DNA of 64,000 bases from the human T2T-CHM13v2.0 reference genome, Homo sapiens: assembly GCF_009914755.1 (NCBI RefSeq), contig NC_060947.1; one strand, written 5' to 3'. The notes under the pieces were generated by a model, which saw nothing but the letters and a program-made list of their open reading frames with translations, did not search any database and was not told where the DNA came from. A program made the translations under genes and the position numbers. This document shows positions 36,801 through 63,300 of this stretch, piece by piece; position 1 is the first letter of the stretch, and each line of letters starts with the position of its first letter.

Positions 36801-38050
36801 CCCAAGTAAACATCCCAAACCCTACATCTAAGGCAGCCATAGCTGAAGAAAGACTGGATACATTTTCTTTAGTTCTGAGACACCAATAATGCCCAGTTTA
36901 TTCTTTCCTTACTATATCACGTCCATTTAAACAAGGACGCTCATAGGCAAGAATGAATTCATGGGATTTTCATTTGACTTTTCATTGAAAGGGATGCCAG
37001 GATGGAACAACCCCTACCCTTGGTTTGTTGCTCTATTGACATCCACCAACACCAGGATCAAGCCAATATTCATCCCTGAAATAAGGTATAGGCAGTAGCA
37101 AGTTCAGAGAAGCACCATGAACAAAACCACAAACCATTACTGGATGTTATATTAATGACATAGCTTAAGGGCGTTAACAGACTATAAGCCTGTTTCATAA
37201 ACATTTAAATTTAAACATGAAGGGCGAATGGGGGAAAAAAAACCTCAGTGGATGTCCTTTCTTTATTTGGATGATTGTTCCTTAATATTTGACAGGTTTA
37301 ATCTTTCAGAGCCTATTACTCAAAATTGTACCCTCTCTCTAAAGAGGACAATATGCTGTCCTTGGCACTTCCAATCCAAATAATGTCATCTGTGTAATGG
37401 TACCAGAATACTTCCAGTGAGGTTTCAGTCTTTTCTAAGTCTCAGCCTATCCACTGGTGATAAAGTGTGGGTCTCATTGCCTTGTCATTTTAACATATAA
37501 TGTAATCCAACCATTTAAGGAAAATGGACTCTAATCATATTAATTCATCAGGATTTGAAGGAAGCAATAGCATATCCACTACTGCATACAAGGCCCTTCA
37601 GGATGCACAATAGACTCCTAGTTTGTTATGACACCTGGAAAATTATTGAGTAAGAAGACAGCTGCCACATTAAACTAGTTATAATTCACACTGAGGTGTC
37701 AATTGACCCTGACTATTTTCACAGGCCAACTGTGGCTATTGTAGGATGGTGTAGCTTCTTTAAGCACATCTGCTTCTATCAGTCCCTCACCTCTTTGCTG
37801 ACACTGCAGTGCTGGCCTTGGGTAACCTAGTAAGATATAGGTTGTCCACTCATCCTACTAACACTGTTCTAATGGTTACATTTCCCTTGTGGGTATATCC
37901 ATTACAATCAATAGAATATTTCCATGCACTTAACAAAACTTCCCACAATACACTCAGCAGTATCAGTTATATTTATGTACCTGTATTGGTCCTCTATACT
38001 GGGGGCTGGCTAGCAAGTGAACTGCTCCCCTACTATCCCACAGAGGTAAG
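33900..38050 (-). pseudogene. Class III (ERV-L-like) pro-pol copy 1, with L1MA insertion and internal duplication
   Basis: minus-strand YNSHSWPVK, *HLSVNY, WYHYTDDII (~37380-37405), FTDSWAAANVLAVWTGGW (RNase H), FGFLDCIQSD (integrase). Confidence 0.85.
34057..35012 (-). mobile_element. L1MA (MA2-like) 3' fragment inserted in copy 1
   Basis: antisense 3' [26 protein letters not shown]. Confidence 0.92.
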
Positions 38051-38574
38051 GTTAATGTTCTTCATGTGGACACATAGACCCTGAGAAAGGAAATGTTTCA
38101 AGCTTTTTCTTTACTCTAAAAGGGGAAGGGCAAAGTTTAATTCTACCTTGCTTCAAGCAAATGACAAAGACCTCCAAAAAGCTTGTTTTAAGTCTCCTGC
38201 AGTTTGTAAACACAAGGATTAGTATCTGGTTCACACAATGAACTCAGAAATCTGGCACTGAAGCTGCGCCTTTCAGAAGGTACAATAAAATACCTGGTTT
38301 TAGAGTGAGCTGCATTTCTACCACATGCAGGTTACTGTGTTTTCCAAAGACATTATGTGCTTGCTACCATGATGAGTGGTCTGAGATTGTATTAAAATTA
38401 AACCATTCAAGGAGTCCCTGGCATGAAAAGAGGGAGCCTCAAAAGGAAGATCACAAAATTCTAGGGCATAGGTTACATTTAGCAGCCAGTGAAAGAAAAG
38501 GCACATTCCTGAAATCATGTATTGAATGAGATGTCCAACACACACAATATCAAATAAGTAATTTGGCAGAGGCT

Positions 38575-38902
38575 ATCTTTTGGAGAGAGGGTCTTTACGA
38601 AATAACCAAATTAAAATGAAGTCATTATCATGGTCCTAATCCAATATGACTGGTATAAGAAGAGGAAATTTGGACACAGATACATCTGCAGGGAGAATGT
38701 CACATGAAGACAAAGGTGGCCATCTACGAGCAAAGAAGAAAGTCCTGGAAAAGACCCTTTCCTCACATACCTCAGAAGAGACAATCCATGCAAACACCTT
38801 GATTTCTCACTCTGAGCCTCCAAAACTGTAAGACAACAAATTTCAGTTGCTTAACCACCAAGTCTGTGGTACTTACCTATGGCAATCCTAGTGAACAATT
38901 AC
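38575..38902 (+). mobile_element. MLT1B-like LTR inserted in one spacer motif
   Basis: cctaatccaatatgactggt..gaggaaatttggacacaga..gcctccaaaactgtaagacaa..ggcaatcctagtgaacaattaca. Confidence 0.8.
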
Positions 38903-59904: not shown

Positions 59905-60075
59905 CATCAGATGGCAGAGTAGGAGACCCTAGGCATCAATCTGTCCACCAGAACAACTACTGAGCTGGCAAAATCTGTCTGGAGCATTAAATTTATAGCT
60001 CTGCAAACTAGTTGAACACTTACAGCATCAGGGGAGCATGTGATGAAGAAAAAGGCTGAAAAATGTCAGTGAAAT
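59905..60075 (+). mobile_element. Possible old L1M 5'-end fragment
   Basis: agatggcagagtaggag..gctggcaaaatctgtctg. Confidence 0.4.
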
Positions 60076-61519
60076 TTTAAGCCCCCAGAAGCTAGAGGGG
60101 CTAAATCACTGAGGAAGAGAAGTTAGACTTAGAGCTGCCCCTGTCAGAGGCACAATAAGAGGACTGGTTTAGGAGAGAACTACACTTTCACTATATGCAG
60201 GAAAAAGGAATATATTCTCCGTGGGAGATACGTGGAACCTAAGAAAAAGAGTTGCTGGTTATTTTCTCCTCACTCATGAGGGAGGGACAAAGATCAGTTG
60301 ATTCTTGCTTCAAGCAAATAACAGAGGTTCAAAAAGCTTCTCTTATGTCCCCTGAAACACATTAACCAGTGTCTCATTCTTCCAAGTGATGACAAGAATC
60401 TGGGGATGGAGCAACCCTAAAAAAAGGCACAACAAGGATGACTTGGAAAATGAACTGCAGCTCCAACATGATGGTGGGGCCATAGTAGAAATATGCTGCC
60501 ACCACAACACATGTAAACTTGAGCTCCTGCCAAGCCTAGAACTCATCACTGTGTGCCTGAAGCTCTGGCATATTACAATACAACCAAAATATTGAGTAGA
60601 AATGTGAGGGGGAAAAGTGTTTGCAAAAGAAAGGGTTACACACTGGCTGGCCCAGAATGAACAGATGGCTGAATCCAGTAGACATAAAGACTTTTCAAGA
60701 GGTCTTTAAATATGTATGTGCCTGGAGCCCCAGCATAAATTGTCAAAAAAAAATATGAGAACTGACCTCCCCACACATATGGTTGCTCAGGACCAGGTTC
60801 ACTTGGAGATGAGGCCCCTAAAACTGCTATCACCAACACAAAGTGGCAATCTCACTTCCTACTTTAGTGTGTAGAACTCCAATATGTAGTAATCCAAATG
60901 CCAGAAAGAATACAAATGCCGAGAACTAGGTTTTGCTAAATTAAATGCTACACACACTGATCACCAGAATCAAATTCATACCTGAAGCTGGAGTAAACAA
61001 ATACCAAGTTTTTTTAAGGGGACTTTGAAAAACAAAGAAGGCTCTCAGAAAACATCCACTAGCCGAGATATCTATGCTTGAAAGTTTGGCAGATAATTTT
61101 GCACTGGATATAATCCAACATAAAAATTCTGGGATCAACAGAGGCACTAAGTACAGAAAGAGCTGAAGGAAGTCAAATATATGGCAGGATTTGCATGCAT
61201 GCTAACAACACAAAGAATGAGGGGTGATGCTGACTCACCCTCACATTTGATGTAAGTAAAGTGAATAAGCTAATGGACCTGAGTATCTAAGATAAGGGTG
61301 AAAATACATATGTACAACTATTATGTATCCATAAAAATTACAAATTAAAAAACACCCTTGCCAGAGGCTCCAAAGAACAGAACAATAAATGTCAAGTACT
61401 CTGTATTCTAAAACAAGGTTCTGAGACATCTCACCAAAAACTTGACCTAAACTGATTCTACTAGATTAGCCCATCACATACCTCTGTAATATAAAAAGTT
61501 GTGTTGAAAGAGAAGGAAA

Positions 61520-63300
61520 AGAATTTTGAAAGGAGTTGTCTCTGTGGTAGACATTTTCTTCTCCATCCTGACTCTGGGCCTCCTCTATCCTCTCCTCAAC
61601 TTCTTGCTTTGTTATTCTCTCAATGTCACTAACTAGAAGTCATTTCTCAATGGTGGTATATCAGGTGGCAGTTTTAGGCAAGGACCACATACGAATCCCA
61701 AAGTGGCCACAACATTTTACCACAGTTCCTGTGAGCATTAATATTCATTGCTAAAACTTTCTTTCAAAACGTGACTGACTGGCCTGAGTGAAACAATGGT
61801 CTGTACAGCTTGACAGATAATATCAAAGGCAGGTTGTTGGTCAACTCAAATGACTTTTGAGTAATCTTATATAATGAGCTGAGCAGGATCCCCACATGAG
61901 GTATAAAGTCAACTCAATACGCTCAAGCTTATCATGTGCTCTCTCAAATTTGTTTTTCTGGTGTTTTTAAGGCCATCAGTTTTTCTTGAGCAGACTCAAG
62001 GAGTATACTCTGGGCATCAATTCACATGTTTCATCAGAACTTTATCTGGGTTCTGGCTACTGGGTCTTGTCAGGGTTATTAATCTTCCAGTGCTGGTTAC
62101 TCAGATATTGGACCATCTATCTACCACAGACAATATGCTGTCCTTAGTGCTTCCAATCAGAATGATGCCAGTCATATAATGGGACCAGGACACCTCTGGT
62201 GAGAATTCAGTCTTTCCTAGGACTCGGCCTATCCACCAGTGAGAAATCATGGGAAAGTTTAGGTCACACTGGGGCAGCAAGGTGAATACATGTTGTAATC
62301 AGATCCCCAAGAAGCTAATTAGACTTTCAACACACAATGGGATCTGAAAAAAACATTGGTATGTCCACTATTGCAGACCAAGCCATTCATTCTGCACATG
62401 ACCATGAACATTACAATATCTGGAAGTAAAGGAACAAGGAGGACTACTGCTACATTGAGCTCATGGCAAAAAGACAGTGAGGTTTCAGTTACTATATTGG
62501 TTTTTTGATTAGTTAAGGGTCCTTCTTTCACATGTCCCACCTCCCACCCCAACTCAGTATCTGATATGGTTTGGCTGTGTCCCCACCCAAATCTCAACTT
62601 GAATTGTAGCTCCCAGAATTCCCACATGTTGTGGGAGGGACCCAGGTGAAGTAATTGAATCATGGGGGCTGGTCTTTCCCGTGCTATTCTCATGATAGTG
62701 GATAAGTCTCACGAGATCTGATGGGTTTATCAAGGGTTTCCGCTTTTGCTGCTTCTTCATTTTTCTCTTGCTGCCGCCATATAAGAGGTGCCTTTTGCCT
62801 CCCGCCATGATTCTGAGGCCTCCTCAGCCATGTGGAACTGTAAGTCCAATTAAAACTTTTTTTTCTTTCCAGTCTCAGGTGTGTCTTTATCAGCAGTGGG
62901 AAAATGGACTAATACAGTATCTTAAACTGCTTTAACAATGCCTCTAGGCTGGGAATCCTGGTGGGTTCCCAGTTGTATTAATGCCCCACTACCACTATTC
63001 TATTGTGGCATTTCCCCATTGAGAACATCTCTTACAAACAAGGACATCCCTTACAAACAAGAAAATATTTAACACAACTCTTCCCACAGCACATTCAGCA
63101 GTATCAATTACAACAACTTGCCTGTCTATTTGACCAGGGGAGCCCACCCATAAACTCTCATTAGTCCATAGTCCAATCTGAGAGGCATGTACACATCCAA
63201 CGTAAATTTCATTTTTGCTTACAAAAAAGTATTAGAACTGGCAAATATGCCCTAAATCTTGCTGGGGATCACAAGTCTCCCTTGCTGGAGGGCATCAAAG
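61520..63300 (-). pseudogene. ERV-L-like pro-pol copy 5 (most of RNase H/IN deleted)
   Basis: *NLTVFCHELN, QHVFTLLPQ, WSHYMTGIILIG (~62152-62190), protease-region anchor at ~63008. Confidence 0.8.
62562..62916 (+). mobile_element. THE1A solo LTR
   Basis: tgatatggtttggc...ggactaataca; 5-bp TSD gtatc. Confidence 0.95.

What the first reader, a model, noticed from the sequence alone, without database searches (positions are those of the whole stretch)
37681..62490. All five copies share the same TGG>TGA stop in the RT WRxTVDY motif
The plus-strand triplet tca (TGA on minus) occupies the Trp position at 37699, 42962, 48621, 54797 and 62485, giving *HLSVNY, *CLTVSY, *HLTV, *PLTVDN and *NLTVFC. 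Copies 2, 3 and 5 also read xDL where LPQGY is expected. Inference: pol was already dead before amplification, so the array arose by DNA duplication and any retained role is not RT activity.
Basis: partly seen in the sequence, partly recalled or inferred. Interest (0 to 1): 0.8.

Follow-up and report, generated by a model that had tools for sequence, protein, structure and literature searches.

The report
Ancient tandem array of dead provirus
A long-dead retrovirus copy on the human X chromosome was duplicated head to tail many times as plain DNA more than about 100 million years ago, and all copies still carry the same inherited breaks; it is a neat genomic fossil rather than a working element.

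Summary
A minus-strand TGA sits at the claimed places in all five copies, at the codon where a Pfam-positive HERV-L reverse transcriptase (RT) has the Trp of SWRMTVDY.

- **More copies than five.** The array runs beyond the window, from about 33.2k to 117.3k, which is about 84 kb. It has 7 RT-bearing units and about 6 partial ones, all on the minus strand.
- **How widely the TGA is shared.** It is present in 7 of 8 RT copies, including a 1.5-kb fragment on chr2. One copy reads TCA.
- **Not the only shared break.** Two further in-frame TGAs and one frameshift are common to most or all copies, so pol was dead before their last common ancestor.
- **Signs of DNA-level duplication.** Units abut through one short LTR-like segment with no host DNA between them. 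The tree is star-like, with end branches of about 0.22 and inner branches of 0.04 or less.
- **No dispersed family.** Outside this array and two derived fragments, genome searches found only distant HERV-L-type matches.
- **No sign of retained function.** Identity is flat at about 66%, with no Rfam match and no CTCF-like motif.

Verdict: an old, decayed, ERV-L-related proviral array made by DNA duplication.

The parts
33170..64000 (-). The part of the head-to-tail array that lies inside the window. The array continues outside it to about window coordinate 117340 (chrX:23,243,340). In all it has 7 RT-bearing units and about 6 partial units without detectable RT. Copy 6 is at 78806-82132 and copy 7 at 109586-111813. 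The array ends about 7.7 kb before PRDX4, whose place comes from the hub's annotation.
   Evidence: Sensitive blastn of unit 2 and unit 1 against chrX:23106001-23250000. All family hits are on the minus strand. None lie in the 53 kb upstream of 33.2k.
35580..37925 (-). Copy 1 pol remnant (RT to integrase). It contains a private internal duplication, 35838-36358 versus 36583-37126.
   Evidence: DP score against the HERV-L RT is 87, versus a shuffle maximum of 60.
40862..43238 (-). Copy 2 pol remnant. One frame reads RT, RNase H and integrase remnants with 41 stops in 741 codons.
   Evidence: DP score 171 versus shuffle maximum 47.
45905..49198 (-). Copy 3 pol remnant, interrupted by two Alu-like inserts (47325-47632, 48637-48924) and an L1-like piece (about 46270-46950).
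   Evidence: The RNase H stretch matches a natural HERV-L ORF at E=1.3e-5.
52353..55070 (-). Copy 4 pol remnant. In this copy the three shared TGAs lie in one unbroken frame, at -37, 0 and +149 codons.
61704..63042 (-). Copy 5 pol remnant. It holds RT only; the RNase H and integrase part is deleted, and the LTR-like segment follows directly.
   Evidence: DP score 216 versus shuffle maximum 51.
37699..37701 (-). Copy 1: TGA at the codon where HERV-L has Trp (S-W-R-M-T-V-D-Y).
42962..42964 (-). Copy 2: the same TGA.
48621..48623 (-). Copy 3: the same TGA. An Alu-like insert with a duplicated target lies 13 nt upstream.
54797..54799 (-). Copy 4: the same TGA.
62485..62487 (-). Copy 5: the same TGA. 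Outside the window, copy 7 has TGA at 111560-111562, copy 6 has TCA at 80653-80655, and the chr2 fragment has TGA at chr2:33718924-33718926.
54908..54910 (-). Second shared in-frame TGA, given here for copy 4. The homologous triplets are at 43074-43076 (copy 2), 49033-49035 (copy 3), 62528-62530 (copy 5), 80766-80768 (copy 6) and 111602-111604 (copy 7), and also on chr2. Copy 1 is deleted there.
   Evidence: It is 111 nt (37 codons) upstream of the Trp-position TGA in copy 4, and 6 codons before T-L-I-K-E-L.
54350..54352 (-). Third shared in-frame TGA, at the place of the G of HERV-L K-F-M-G, given here for copy 4. The copy 5 triplet is at 62031-62033. Copies 6 and 7 also have it. Copy 2 reads GAA. 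Copy 3 has a deletion over the codon, chr2 lacks the region, and copy 1 is not reliably aligned there.
   Evidence: It is 447 nt (149 codons) after the Trp-position TGA in copy 4.
54161..54177 (-). Place of the shared frameshift between the I-T-Q-K block and the D-Q-Q-x-A-L-E-T-L block, given here for copy 4. The homologous stretches are 42317-42334 (copy 2), 47973-47990 (copy 3) and 61839-61856 (copy 5).
   Evidence: Six of 7 copies have 11 nt between the two blocks, so the blocks lie in different frames. Copy 4 has 10 nt, through a further deletion of its own.
40426..40754 (-). Single inter-unit segment between copy 2 and copy 1. It is LTR-like by position only. Sister segments lie at 33692-33992, 44951-45220 and 61360-61597, and outside the window at 72706-73095 and 102967-103280.
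   Evidence: The segments are 67-73% alike. The order pol end, this segment, leader was seen at 4 of 4 resolvable junctions.

Best explanation
One provirus of an ERV-L-related (class III) retrovirus entered this site on the ancestral X chromosome. Its pol gene then broke, gaining at least three in-frame TGA stops and one frameshift in RT. Only after that was the dead element copied head to tail as chromosomal DNA. The copying was most simply unequal recombination between its terminal repeats. It produced an array of about a dozen units in a short burst, and one 1.5-kb piece was also copied to chr2. The burst happened roughly 100-200 million years ago. That date is inferred from end branches of about 0.22 substitutions per site and a recalled neutral rate of 1-2.2e-9 per year. 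Since then every unit has decayed independently and neutrally through substitutions, deletions and Alu/L1 insertions. The array makes no RT and shows no sign of another retained function.

Shown: homology of the stop codons, the further shared breaks, RT and RNase H homology to HERV-L, array structure, star-like tree, and lack of a dispersed family.

Inferred: the recombination mechanism, the LTR nature of the inter-unit segment, the date, and neutrality.
For: - **The TGA.** It lies in one alignment column in 7 of 8 copies.
- **Other shared breaks.** A second TGA is present in 7 of 7 copies, a third in 4 of 5, and a frameshift is seen in 6 of 7 copies with copy 4 further deleted.
- **RT identity, local search.** tblastn with the Pfam-positive HERV-L ORF P0001 gives colinear hits in the copies (E from 3e-6 to 0.3, weakest for chr2; none reported for copy 3).
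- **RT identity, frameshift-aware alignment.** Scores are 87-216 for 8 of 8 copies. Shuffles reach at most 65 and reverse complements 48-60.
- **RNase H.** Copy 3 matches a natural HERV-L ORF at E=1.3e-5.
- **Class.** All 7 weak non-family genome hits that I inspected are HERV-L-type.
- **Structure.** All units are on the minus strand, with one 240-330-bp segment and no host DNA at 4 of 4 junctions.
- **Tree.** End branches are 0.18-0.26 (copy 1: 0.37) and inner branches 0.009-0.039. The chr2 piece sits inside the star.
- **Divergence.** Pairwise p-distance is 0.28-0.37, and 0.40-0.46 for copy 1.
- **No dispersed family.** The searches found only this array, the chr2 piece and a 93%-identical recent copy at chrX:13.84 Mb, plus HERV-L-type matches at 22-39% amino-acid identity.
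- **No sign of constraint.** Mean pairwise identity is 0.66, with a window standard deviation of 0.05.
Against: - **Pfam.** No RVT_1 match in any of 28 X-masked translations. PDB phmmer also found nothing. RT identity therefore rests on comparison with natural HERV-L copies.
- **LTR status.** The LTR nature of the inter-unit segment is not shown. I did not look for TG..CA ends, a primer-binding site or a polypurine tract.
- **Array end.** The 3' end of the array does not stop at that segment. About 500 bp of next-unit leader follow it (33173-33529). The end is thus either truncated or not LTR-bounded.
- **Star tree.** It fits repeated unequal crossing-over less well than a one-step amplification.
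- **chr2 copy.** How it was made is unknown.
- **Conflicting sub-groupings.** A TAG at the K of K-F is shared by copies 2, 4 and 7, and a deletion by copies 5 and 7. These hint at exchange between units.
- **Date and neutrality.** No other mammal could be examined, so both are untested.
Confidence: 0.8

Rival explanations
1. Concerted evolution. The array began from a live or less damaged provirus. A dead variant later spread through the array by unequal crossing-over or gene conversion and replaced older units. 'Dead before amplification' would then be true only of the last common ancestor of the surviving copies.
For: - Star-like tree with very short inner branches.
- Conflicting shared characters: TAG at the K of K-F in copies 2, 4 and 7, and a deletion shared by copies 5 and 7, while copy 7 shares the flanking string of the TGA with copy 2 and chr2.
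Against: - The chr2 fragment, which lies outside the array, carries the same breaks. On the tree it is as distant from the units as they are from one another.
- No trace of a less damaged unit was found among 7 RT-bearing copies.
- This rival is still DNA-level, so it changes only the order of events.
Confidence: 0.08
2. A non-autonomous family. An RNA carrying these breaks was copied by the RT of a related live virus and reinserted several times, on chrX and on chr2.
For: - The only copy away from chrX, on chr2, has the same TGA and the other shared stops.
- The star-like tree resembles a retrotransposition burst.
Against: - About 13 pieces lie on one strand within 84 kb. They abut through a single inter-unit segment with no host DNA at 4 of 4 junctions.
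- The chr2 piece is 1.5 kb of RT and RNase H with no LTR-like flank.
- No other dispersed members appeared in one DNA search and two protein searches of the genome.
Confidence: 0.05
3. Recoding. TGA was read as a sense codon in the source virus, so the shared TGAs were not breaks.
For: All three well-placed shared in-frame stops are TGA. Gene callers that read TGA as W produced ORFs from this family in the public protein library.
Against: - The three places correspond to different residues in HERV-L: W, G, and G or I.
- A frameshift is shared as well.
- A nuclear mammalian host does not read TGA as a residue (general knowledge).
- TGA is the commonest product of nonsense mutation (general knowledge).
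Confidence: 0.01
4. Independent parallel mutation of the same codon in separately inserted copies.
For: None beyond the fact that a Trp codon can become a stop in one step. One unrelated HERV-L copy on chr5 has a TAG at the same Trp codon.
Against: Seven copies share the identical triplet, plus two more stops, a frameshift, and 40 out-of-frame or in-frame stop triplets in common.
Confidence: 0.001

Closest known systems
HERV-L / ERV-L (class III endogenous retroviruses)
   Same: - The RT motif order is the same, and alignment to natural human HERV-L copies is colinear.
- The array reads P-V-K-...-*-x-L-T-V-D-Y against P-V-Q-K-T-D-V-S-W-R-M-T-V-D-Y.
- It reads H-Y-M-D-D-I-I against H-Y-I-D-D-I-I.
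- In RNase H it reads Y-T-P-F-E-R-L-L-L-A-C-Y-W against Y-S-P-F-Q-K-Q-F-L-A-C-Y-W.
- All 7 inspected non-family hits are of this type.
- I gave them the name HERV-L by recognising the sequences; no tool supplied the label.
   Different: - Amino-acid identity is only about 25-35%, and there is no DNA-level similarity.
- There is no dispersed copy set.
- The unit is short, about 4.5-5 kb including the inter-unit segment.
- The dUTPase, LTR ends and primer-binding site were not examined.
- It is not a member of the HERV-L family proper. At best it is a separate, older lineage of the same class.
'LTR arrays': megasatellites made of amplified MaLR (MSTA/THE1) elements (Warburton et al. 2008, PMC2588610; passages read)
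   Same: LTR-retroelement pieces, internal parts included, were amplified at the DNA level into kilobase-unit tandem arrays. Unequal crossing-over is proposed for them too.
   Different: - Those arrays are young. The large tandem arrays tabulated in that paper are mostly more than 87-98% identical, and the LTR arrays are visible in dot plots at 90% homology.
- They lie in segmental duplications on about 12 chromosomes, and their number and presence vary between people.
- This array is about 66% identical, at a single locus, and was not in that paper's passages that name Xp22 (only Xp22.33 VNTRs).
Tandem TE dimers as seeds of satellites (McGurk and Barbash, bioRxiv 10.1101/158386; only the search listing and the start of the abstract were seen)
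   Same: A transposable element becomes a tandem array by DNA-level expansion.
   Different: - That work concerns Drosophila and recent events.
- Its proposed seed is a double insertion. There is no evidence here of two insertions.
Tandem proviruses that share a central LTR, such as a HERV-K pair on chromosome 7 (recalled; no call)
   Same: The layout is LTR-internal-LTR-internal-LTR, produced by recombination between LTRs.
   Different: - Those are two-unit, young and nearly intact.
- Here there are about a dozen units, all ancient and broken before copying.

Membership tests
Reverse transcriptase (Pfam RVT_1, PF00078) | Profile match at or above Pfam's gathering score | tested here: not met
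   None of 28 X-masked translations matched: 6 long frames, 1, and 21 frames of 7 copies. I attribute this to stops and frameshifts, not to absence of homology.
Reverse transcriptase (Pfam RVT_1, PF00078) | Colinear homology to a profile-positive RT, beyond chance | tested here: met
   P0001 scores RVT_1 E=1.8e-20. Frameshift-aware scores for 8 of 8 copies are 87-216, against shuffle maxima of 47-65 and reverse complements of 48-60. tblastn hits are colinear, with E from 3e-6 to 0.3; none was reported for copy 3.
Reverse transcriptase (Pfam RVT_1, PF00078) | Y-x-D-D catalytic motif and an open frame | tested here: not met
   Remnants of the motif survive: Y-M-D-D in copies 2 and 6, Y-T-D-D in copy 1, and changed forms in the others. 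No copy has an open frame; copy 2 has 41 stops in 741 codons.
ERV-L / class III ERV | Pol closest to ERV-L among the ERVs of the host genome | tested here: met
   The best non-family hits in two genome-wide protein searches were inspected. All 7 of 7 are HERV-L-type. The RNase H match is E=1.3e-5.
ERV-L / class III ERV | LTRs with defined ends, a primer-binding site, gag-pro-pol without env, and a dUTPase after integrase | not tested
   I have only positional evidence for one LTR-like segment per unit and a unit length of about 4.5-5 kb. The copies are too decayed for Pfam to find domains.
HERV-L family proper (the dispersed human family) | DNA-level similarity to other family members | tested here: not met
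   A DNA search of the whole genome with 1063 nt of copy 2 found, at E of 1e-13 or below, only the array, chrX:13.84 Mb and chr2:33.72 Mb. Three short weak matches (68-103 nt, E about 1e-8) on chr3, chr9 and at chrX:54.19 Mb were not examined.
Retroelement-derived tandem array (DNA-level amplification) | Same orientation, with units abutting and no host DNA between them | tested here: met
   All family hits are on the minus strand. At 4 of 4 resolvable junctions the order is pol end, one 240-330-bp segment, leader, with only later Alu-like inserts.
Retroelement-derived tandem array (DNA-level amplification) | Inactivating changes shared by the units | tested here: met
   Three TGAs are shared in 7 of 8, 7 of 7 and 4 of 5 copies. 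One frameshift is seen in 6 of 7 copies, with copy 4 further deleted.

The most novel reading that the evidence does not exclude
The array may be the fossil of a single-step amplification rather than of many rounds of unequal crossing-over. In this reading, a circular DNA made from the dead provirus (internal part plus one LTR) was copied by rolling-circle replication. It reintegrated as a concatemer of about a dozen units at its own locus, and a fragment landed on chr2 at the same time.

This would explain three things together:
- the star-like tree;
- the unit made of an internal part plus one inter-unit segment;
- the contemporaneous off-site copy.

If right, it would be a dated example, from the time of the early placental mammals or before, of extrachromosomal-circle-mediated amplification of a retroviral relic in the germ line.
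Probability: 0.12. Interest if true: 0.55.

Novelty: new member of a known kind. Interest (0 to 1): 0.3.

Why it matters
The locus is a clean, checkable case of an endogenous retrovirus that multiplied only as host DNA after its own replication machinery had died.

- It preserves about a dozen independent decayed readings of one very old proviral lineage that left no dispersed family in the human genome.
- That makes it useful for dating and for comparing old class III retroviruses.
- It is also a natural set of paralogous neutral sequences on the X chromosome for studying mutation patterns.
- It warns that copy number of an ERV-like sequence need not mean past retrotransposition.
- It has no evident bearing on present-day function.

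Tried and rejected
**Searches that found nothing useful**
- Pfam scans of X-masked translations found no relevant family.
- phmmer of copy 2 pol against PDB chains gave 0 hits at E of 0.01 or below.
- phmmer of copy 2 pol against 1.84 billion representative proteins gave 10 hits at E of 0.001 or below. All are short ORFs of this same family, and in the nearly identical ones W stands where copy 2 has stops. None of the 10 has a Pfam family, so this gave no named relative.

**Methods that failed**
- Counting shared stops by the frame of copy 2, by majority-filled alignment columns and by each copy's own distance modulo 3 did not give a clean census. Private indels scramble the frames within about 100 nt.
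- I therefore claim only the breaks that I could place by unbroken local sequence and by comparison with HERV-L.
- Further candidate shared breaks in the RNase H part remain unresolved: a possible frame change between L-G-P-V and V-L-K-E-S-V-S, split 2 copies against 4, and stops near F-G-I-C and before Y-T-P-F-E-R.

**Ideas rejected or left open**
- A DXZ4-like CTCF array is not supported.
- No structured RNA was found: 0 Rfam matches at gathering score.
- Two literature searches found no paper on this locus. In the second, the listed papers held neither Xp22.11 nor PRDX4. Subscription journals are not covered.

Full report
**The observation.**
- Reading the minus strand at the five places gives TGA at 37699-37701, 42962-42964, 48621-48623, 54797-54799 and 62485-62487.
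- The residues that follow are HLSVNY, CLTVSY, HLTV, PLTVDN and NLTVFL.
- A MAFFT alignment made in a script, with no consensus drawn, places the five triplets in one column.
- The codon after the stop is CAC, TGC, CAC, CCC and AAC in the five copies.

**The array is larger than the window shows.**
- A self-comparison shows units 65-75% alike on one strand.
- A DNA search of the whole assembly with 1063 nt of copy 2 found, at E of 1e-13 or below, only chrX:23.16-23.24 Mb, a 94%-identical piece at chrX:13.84 Mb and a 71%-identical piece at chr2:33.72 Mb. Three short weak matches on chr3, chr9 and at chrX:54.19 Mb (68-103 nt, E about 1e-8) were not examined.
- I fetched 20 kb upstream and 60 kb downstream of the window and mapped unit 2 and unit 1 onto them.
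- Family sequence runs from about 33.2k to 117.3k in window coordinates, always on the minus strand, with none in the 53 kb upstream of 33.2k.
- Seven units carry RT: copies 1-5 in the window, copy 6 at 78.8-82.1k and copy 7 at 109.6-111.8k.
- About six further pieces carry only leader/gag-like or integrase-end parts, near 60-61k, 68k, 73-74.7k, 95.7k, 100-103k and 117.2k.
- In the eight-copy alignment the stop column reads TGA in copies 1-5, copy 7 (111560-111562) and chr2 (33718924-33718926). It reads TCA in copy 6 (80653-80655).

**Is it really RT?**
- Pfam found nothing in 28 X-masked translations, and PDB phmmer found nothing.
- A protein search of the genome with copy 2 gave weak hits elsewhere. 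The best was chr5:110.716 Mb at E=1.3e-8.
- That locus and an open 342-residue frame at chrX:97.10 Mb (P0001) are RVT_1 by Pfam, at E=1.6e-24 and 1.8e-20.
- Both read P-V-Q-K-T-D-x-S-[W or stop]-R-M-T-V-D-Y.
- tblastn with P0001 gives colinear hits in the copies, with E from 3e-6 to 0.3, weakest for chr2. No hit was reported for copy 3.
- A frameshift-aware alignment scores 87-216 for all eight copies. Shuffles reach at most 65 and reverse complements 48-60.
- The aligned rows show the RT motif series. The stop of copies 1 and 4 falls on the W of S-W-R.
- Copy 3's RNase H stretch matches a natural HERV-L ORF at E=1.3e-5.
- All seven non-family hits that I inspected are of the HERV-L type. The name is my recognition, not a tool label.
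- The element is therefore a distant relative of ERV-L (about 25-35% amino-acid identity), not a member of the dispersed HERV-L family.

**Was pol dead before the copies split?** Yes, and by more than one break.
- In copies 1, 3 and 4 the sequence from P-V-K to the stop is unbroken and in frame.
- A second TGA lies 37 codons upstream, six codons before T-L-I-K-E-L. It is present in 7 of 7 copies that have the region. In copy 4 it is exactly 111 nt from the first.
- A third TGA stands where HERV-L has the G of K-F-M-G, in copies 4, 5, 6 and 7. Copy 2 reads GAA. Copy 3 has a deletion over the codon, chr2 lacks the region, and copy 1 is not reliably aligned there. In copy 4 it is 447 nt downstream, again in frame.
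- Between the I-T-Q-K block and the D-Q-Q-x-A-L-E-T-L block, six of seven copies have 11 nt, so the two blocks are in different frames in all of them. Copy 4 has 10 nt, through one more deletion of its own.
- General frame-based counts of shared stops were not reliable because private indels scramble the frames. More shared breaks in the RNase H part are possible but unresolved.

**How were the copies made?**
- At four of four junctions that can be resolved, the order is pol end, one 240-330-bp segment, then the leader of the next unit. The junctions are copy 3/2, copy 2/1, copy 5/next, and one near 103k.
- Nothing unrelated lies between the units except later Alu-like inserts.
- Separate insertions would leave two LTRs and host DNA between units.
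- The tree of nine rows over 1864 columns is star-like. End branches are 0.18-0.26 (copy 1: 0.37) and inner branches 0.009-0.039. Only the copy 2 / chrX:13.84 Mb pair is strongly supported.
- The chr2 piece lies inside the star, not outside it. It is only about 1.5 kb of RT and RNase H with no LTR-like flank.
- A second genome-wide protein search, with copy 5 RT, again found only the array and its derivatives below E=1e-5.
- DNA-level tandem duplication of one already broken provirus is the simplest account.
- Unequal recombination between terminal repeats is inferred, not shown.
- The array's 3' end runs about 500 bp past the last inter-unit segment (33173-33529).

**Age.**
- Pairwise p-distances are 0.28-0.37, and model-corrected end branches are about 0.22.
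- With a recalled neutral rate of about 1-2.2e-9 per site per year, this means roughly 100-200 million years.
- Primate-specific Alu-like inserts sit at non-homologous places in the units, so they came later.
- The chrX:13.84 Mb piece is a 93%-identical DNA-level copy of the 3' half of copy 2 that includes copy 2's Alu-like insert. It is therefore recent and irrelevant to the origin.

**Function.**
- Identity along pol is flat: mean 0.66, window standard deviation 0.05.
- There is no Rfam match and no CTCF-type motif.
- No gene is annotated in the window (hub note).
- I see no evidence for a retained role. Conservation across species could not be tested.

**Known or new.**
- DNA-level arrays of LTR elements are described, for example the MSTA/THE1 'LTR arrays' (PMC2588610, passages read).
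- Two full-text searches found no paper on this locus.
- I file it as a new member of a known kind. It is unusual only for its age, its number of units and the lack of any dispersed family.

Noticed in passing
chrX:13,840,717-13,843,000 (loci L002, L021); source is window 40105-42720: This is a 93-94%-identical DNA-level copy of the 3' half of copy 2. It includes the Alu-like insert that sits after copy 2's inter-unit segment. Its left edge is joined to L1-like sequence. It is a recent duplicative transposition and starts downstream of the Trp-position stop.
   Followed up: partly
window 48637-48924: An Alu-like insert lies 13 nt upstream of copy 3's TGA. An 11-nt duplicated target (ATCCAATGGTT) flanks it. 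This is why the copy 3 reading upstream of the stop looks unrelated at first sight.
   Followed up: partly
window 35838-36358 and 36583-37126: Copy 1 has a private internal tandem duplication (73% identity, offset 745 nt). It also has an L1-like insert at about 34060-35015. Together these make copy 1 the longest and most divergent unit.
   Followed up: no
window 49377-49738 and 62561-62919 (also inverted at 50307-50404): A different repeat of about 360 bp, 80% identical between its two copies, sits at non-homologous places in units 3 and 5. It looks like a later independent insertion of another family, which I did not identify.
   Followed up: no
proteins P0002, P0004, P0010: The public representative protein library holds ORFs called on this very family, with W where the DNA has TGA. 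P0010 is 100% identical to copy 6, P0002 is 98.5% to copy 2, and P0004 is 82% to copy 5. They look like mammalian DNA called with a TGA=Trp code. Five others (P0003, P0005, P0008, P0009, P0011) are 30-45% identical to all human copies and may come from the same array in other mammals.
   Followed up: partly
locus L023, chr5:110,716,2xx (minus strand): An unrelated HERV-L copy has a TAG at the same Trp codon of S-W-R-M-T-V-D-Y. This is an independent hit on the same one-step-to-stop codon.
   Followed up: yes
window 54350-54358 and the homologous places: The K codon of K-F is TAG in copies 2, 4 and 7 but AAG in copies 3, 5 and 6. Copies 5 and 7 also share an 80-nt deletion just upstream of the Trp-position stop. 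These groupings conflict with each other. They hint at exchange between units or at parallel change.
   Followed up: no
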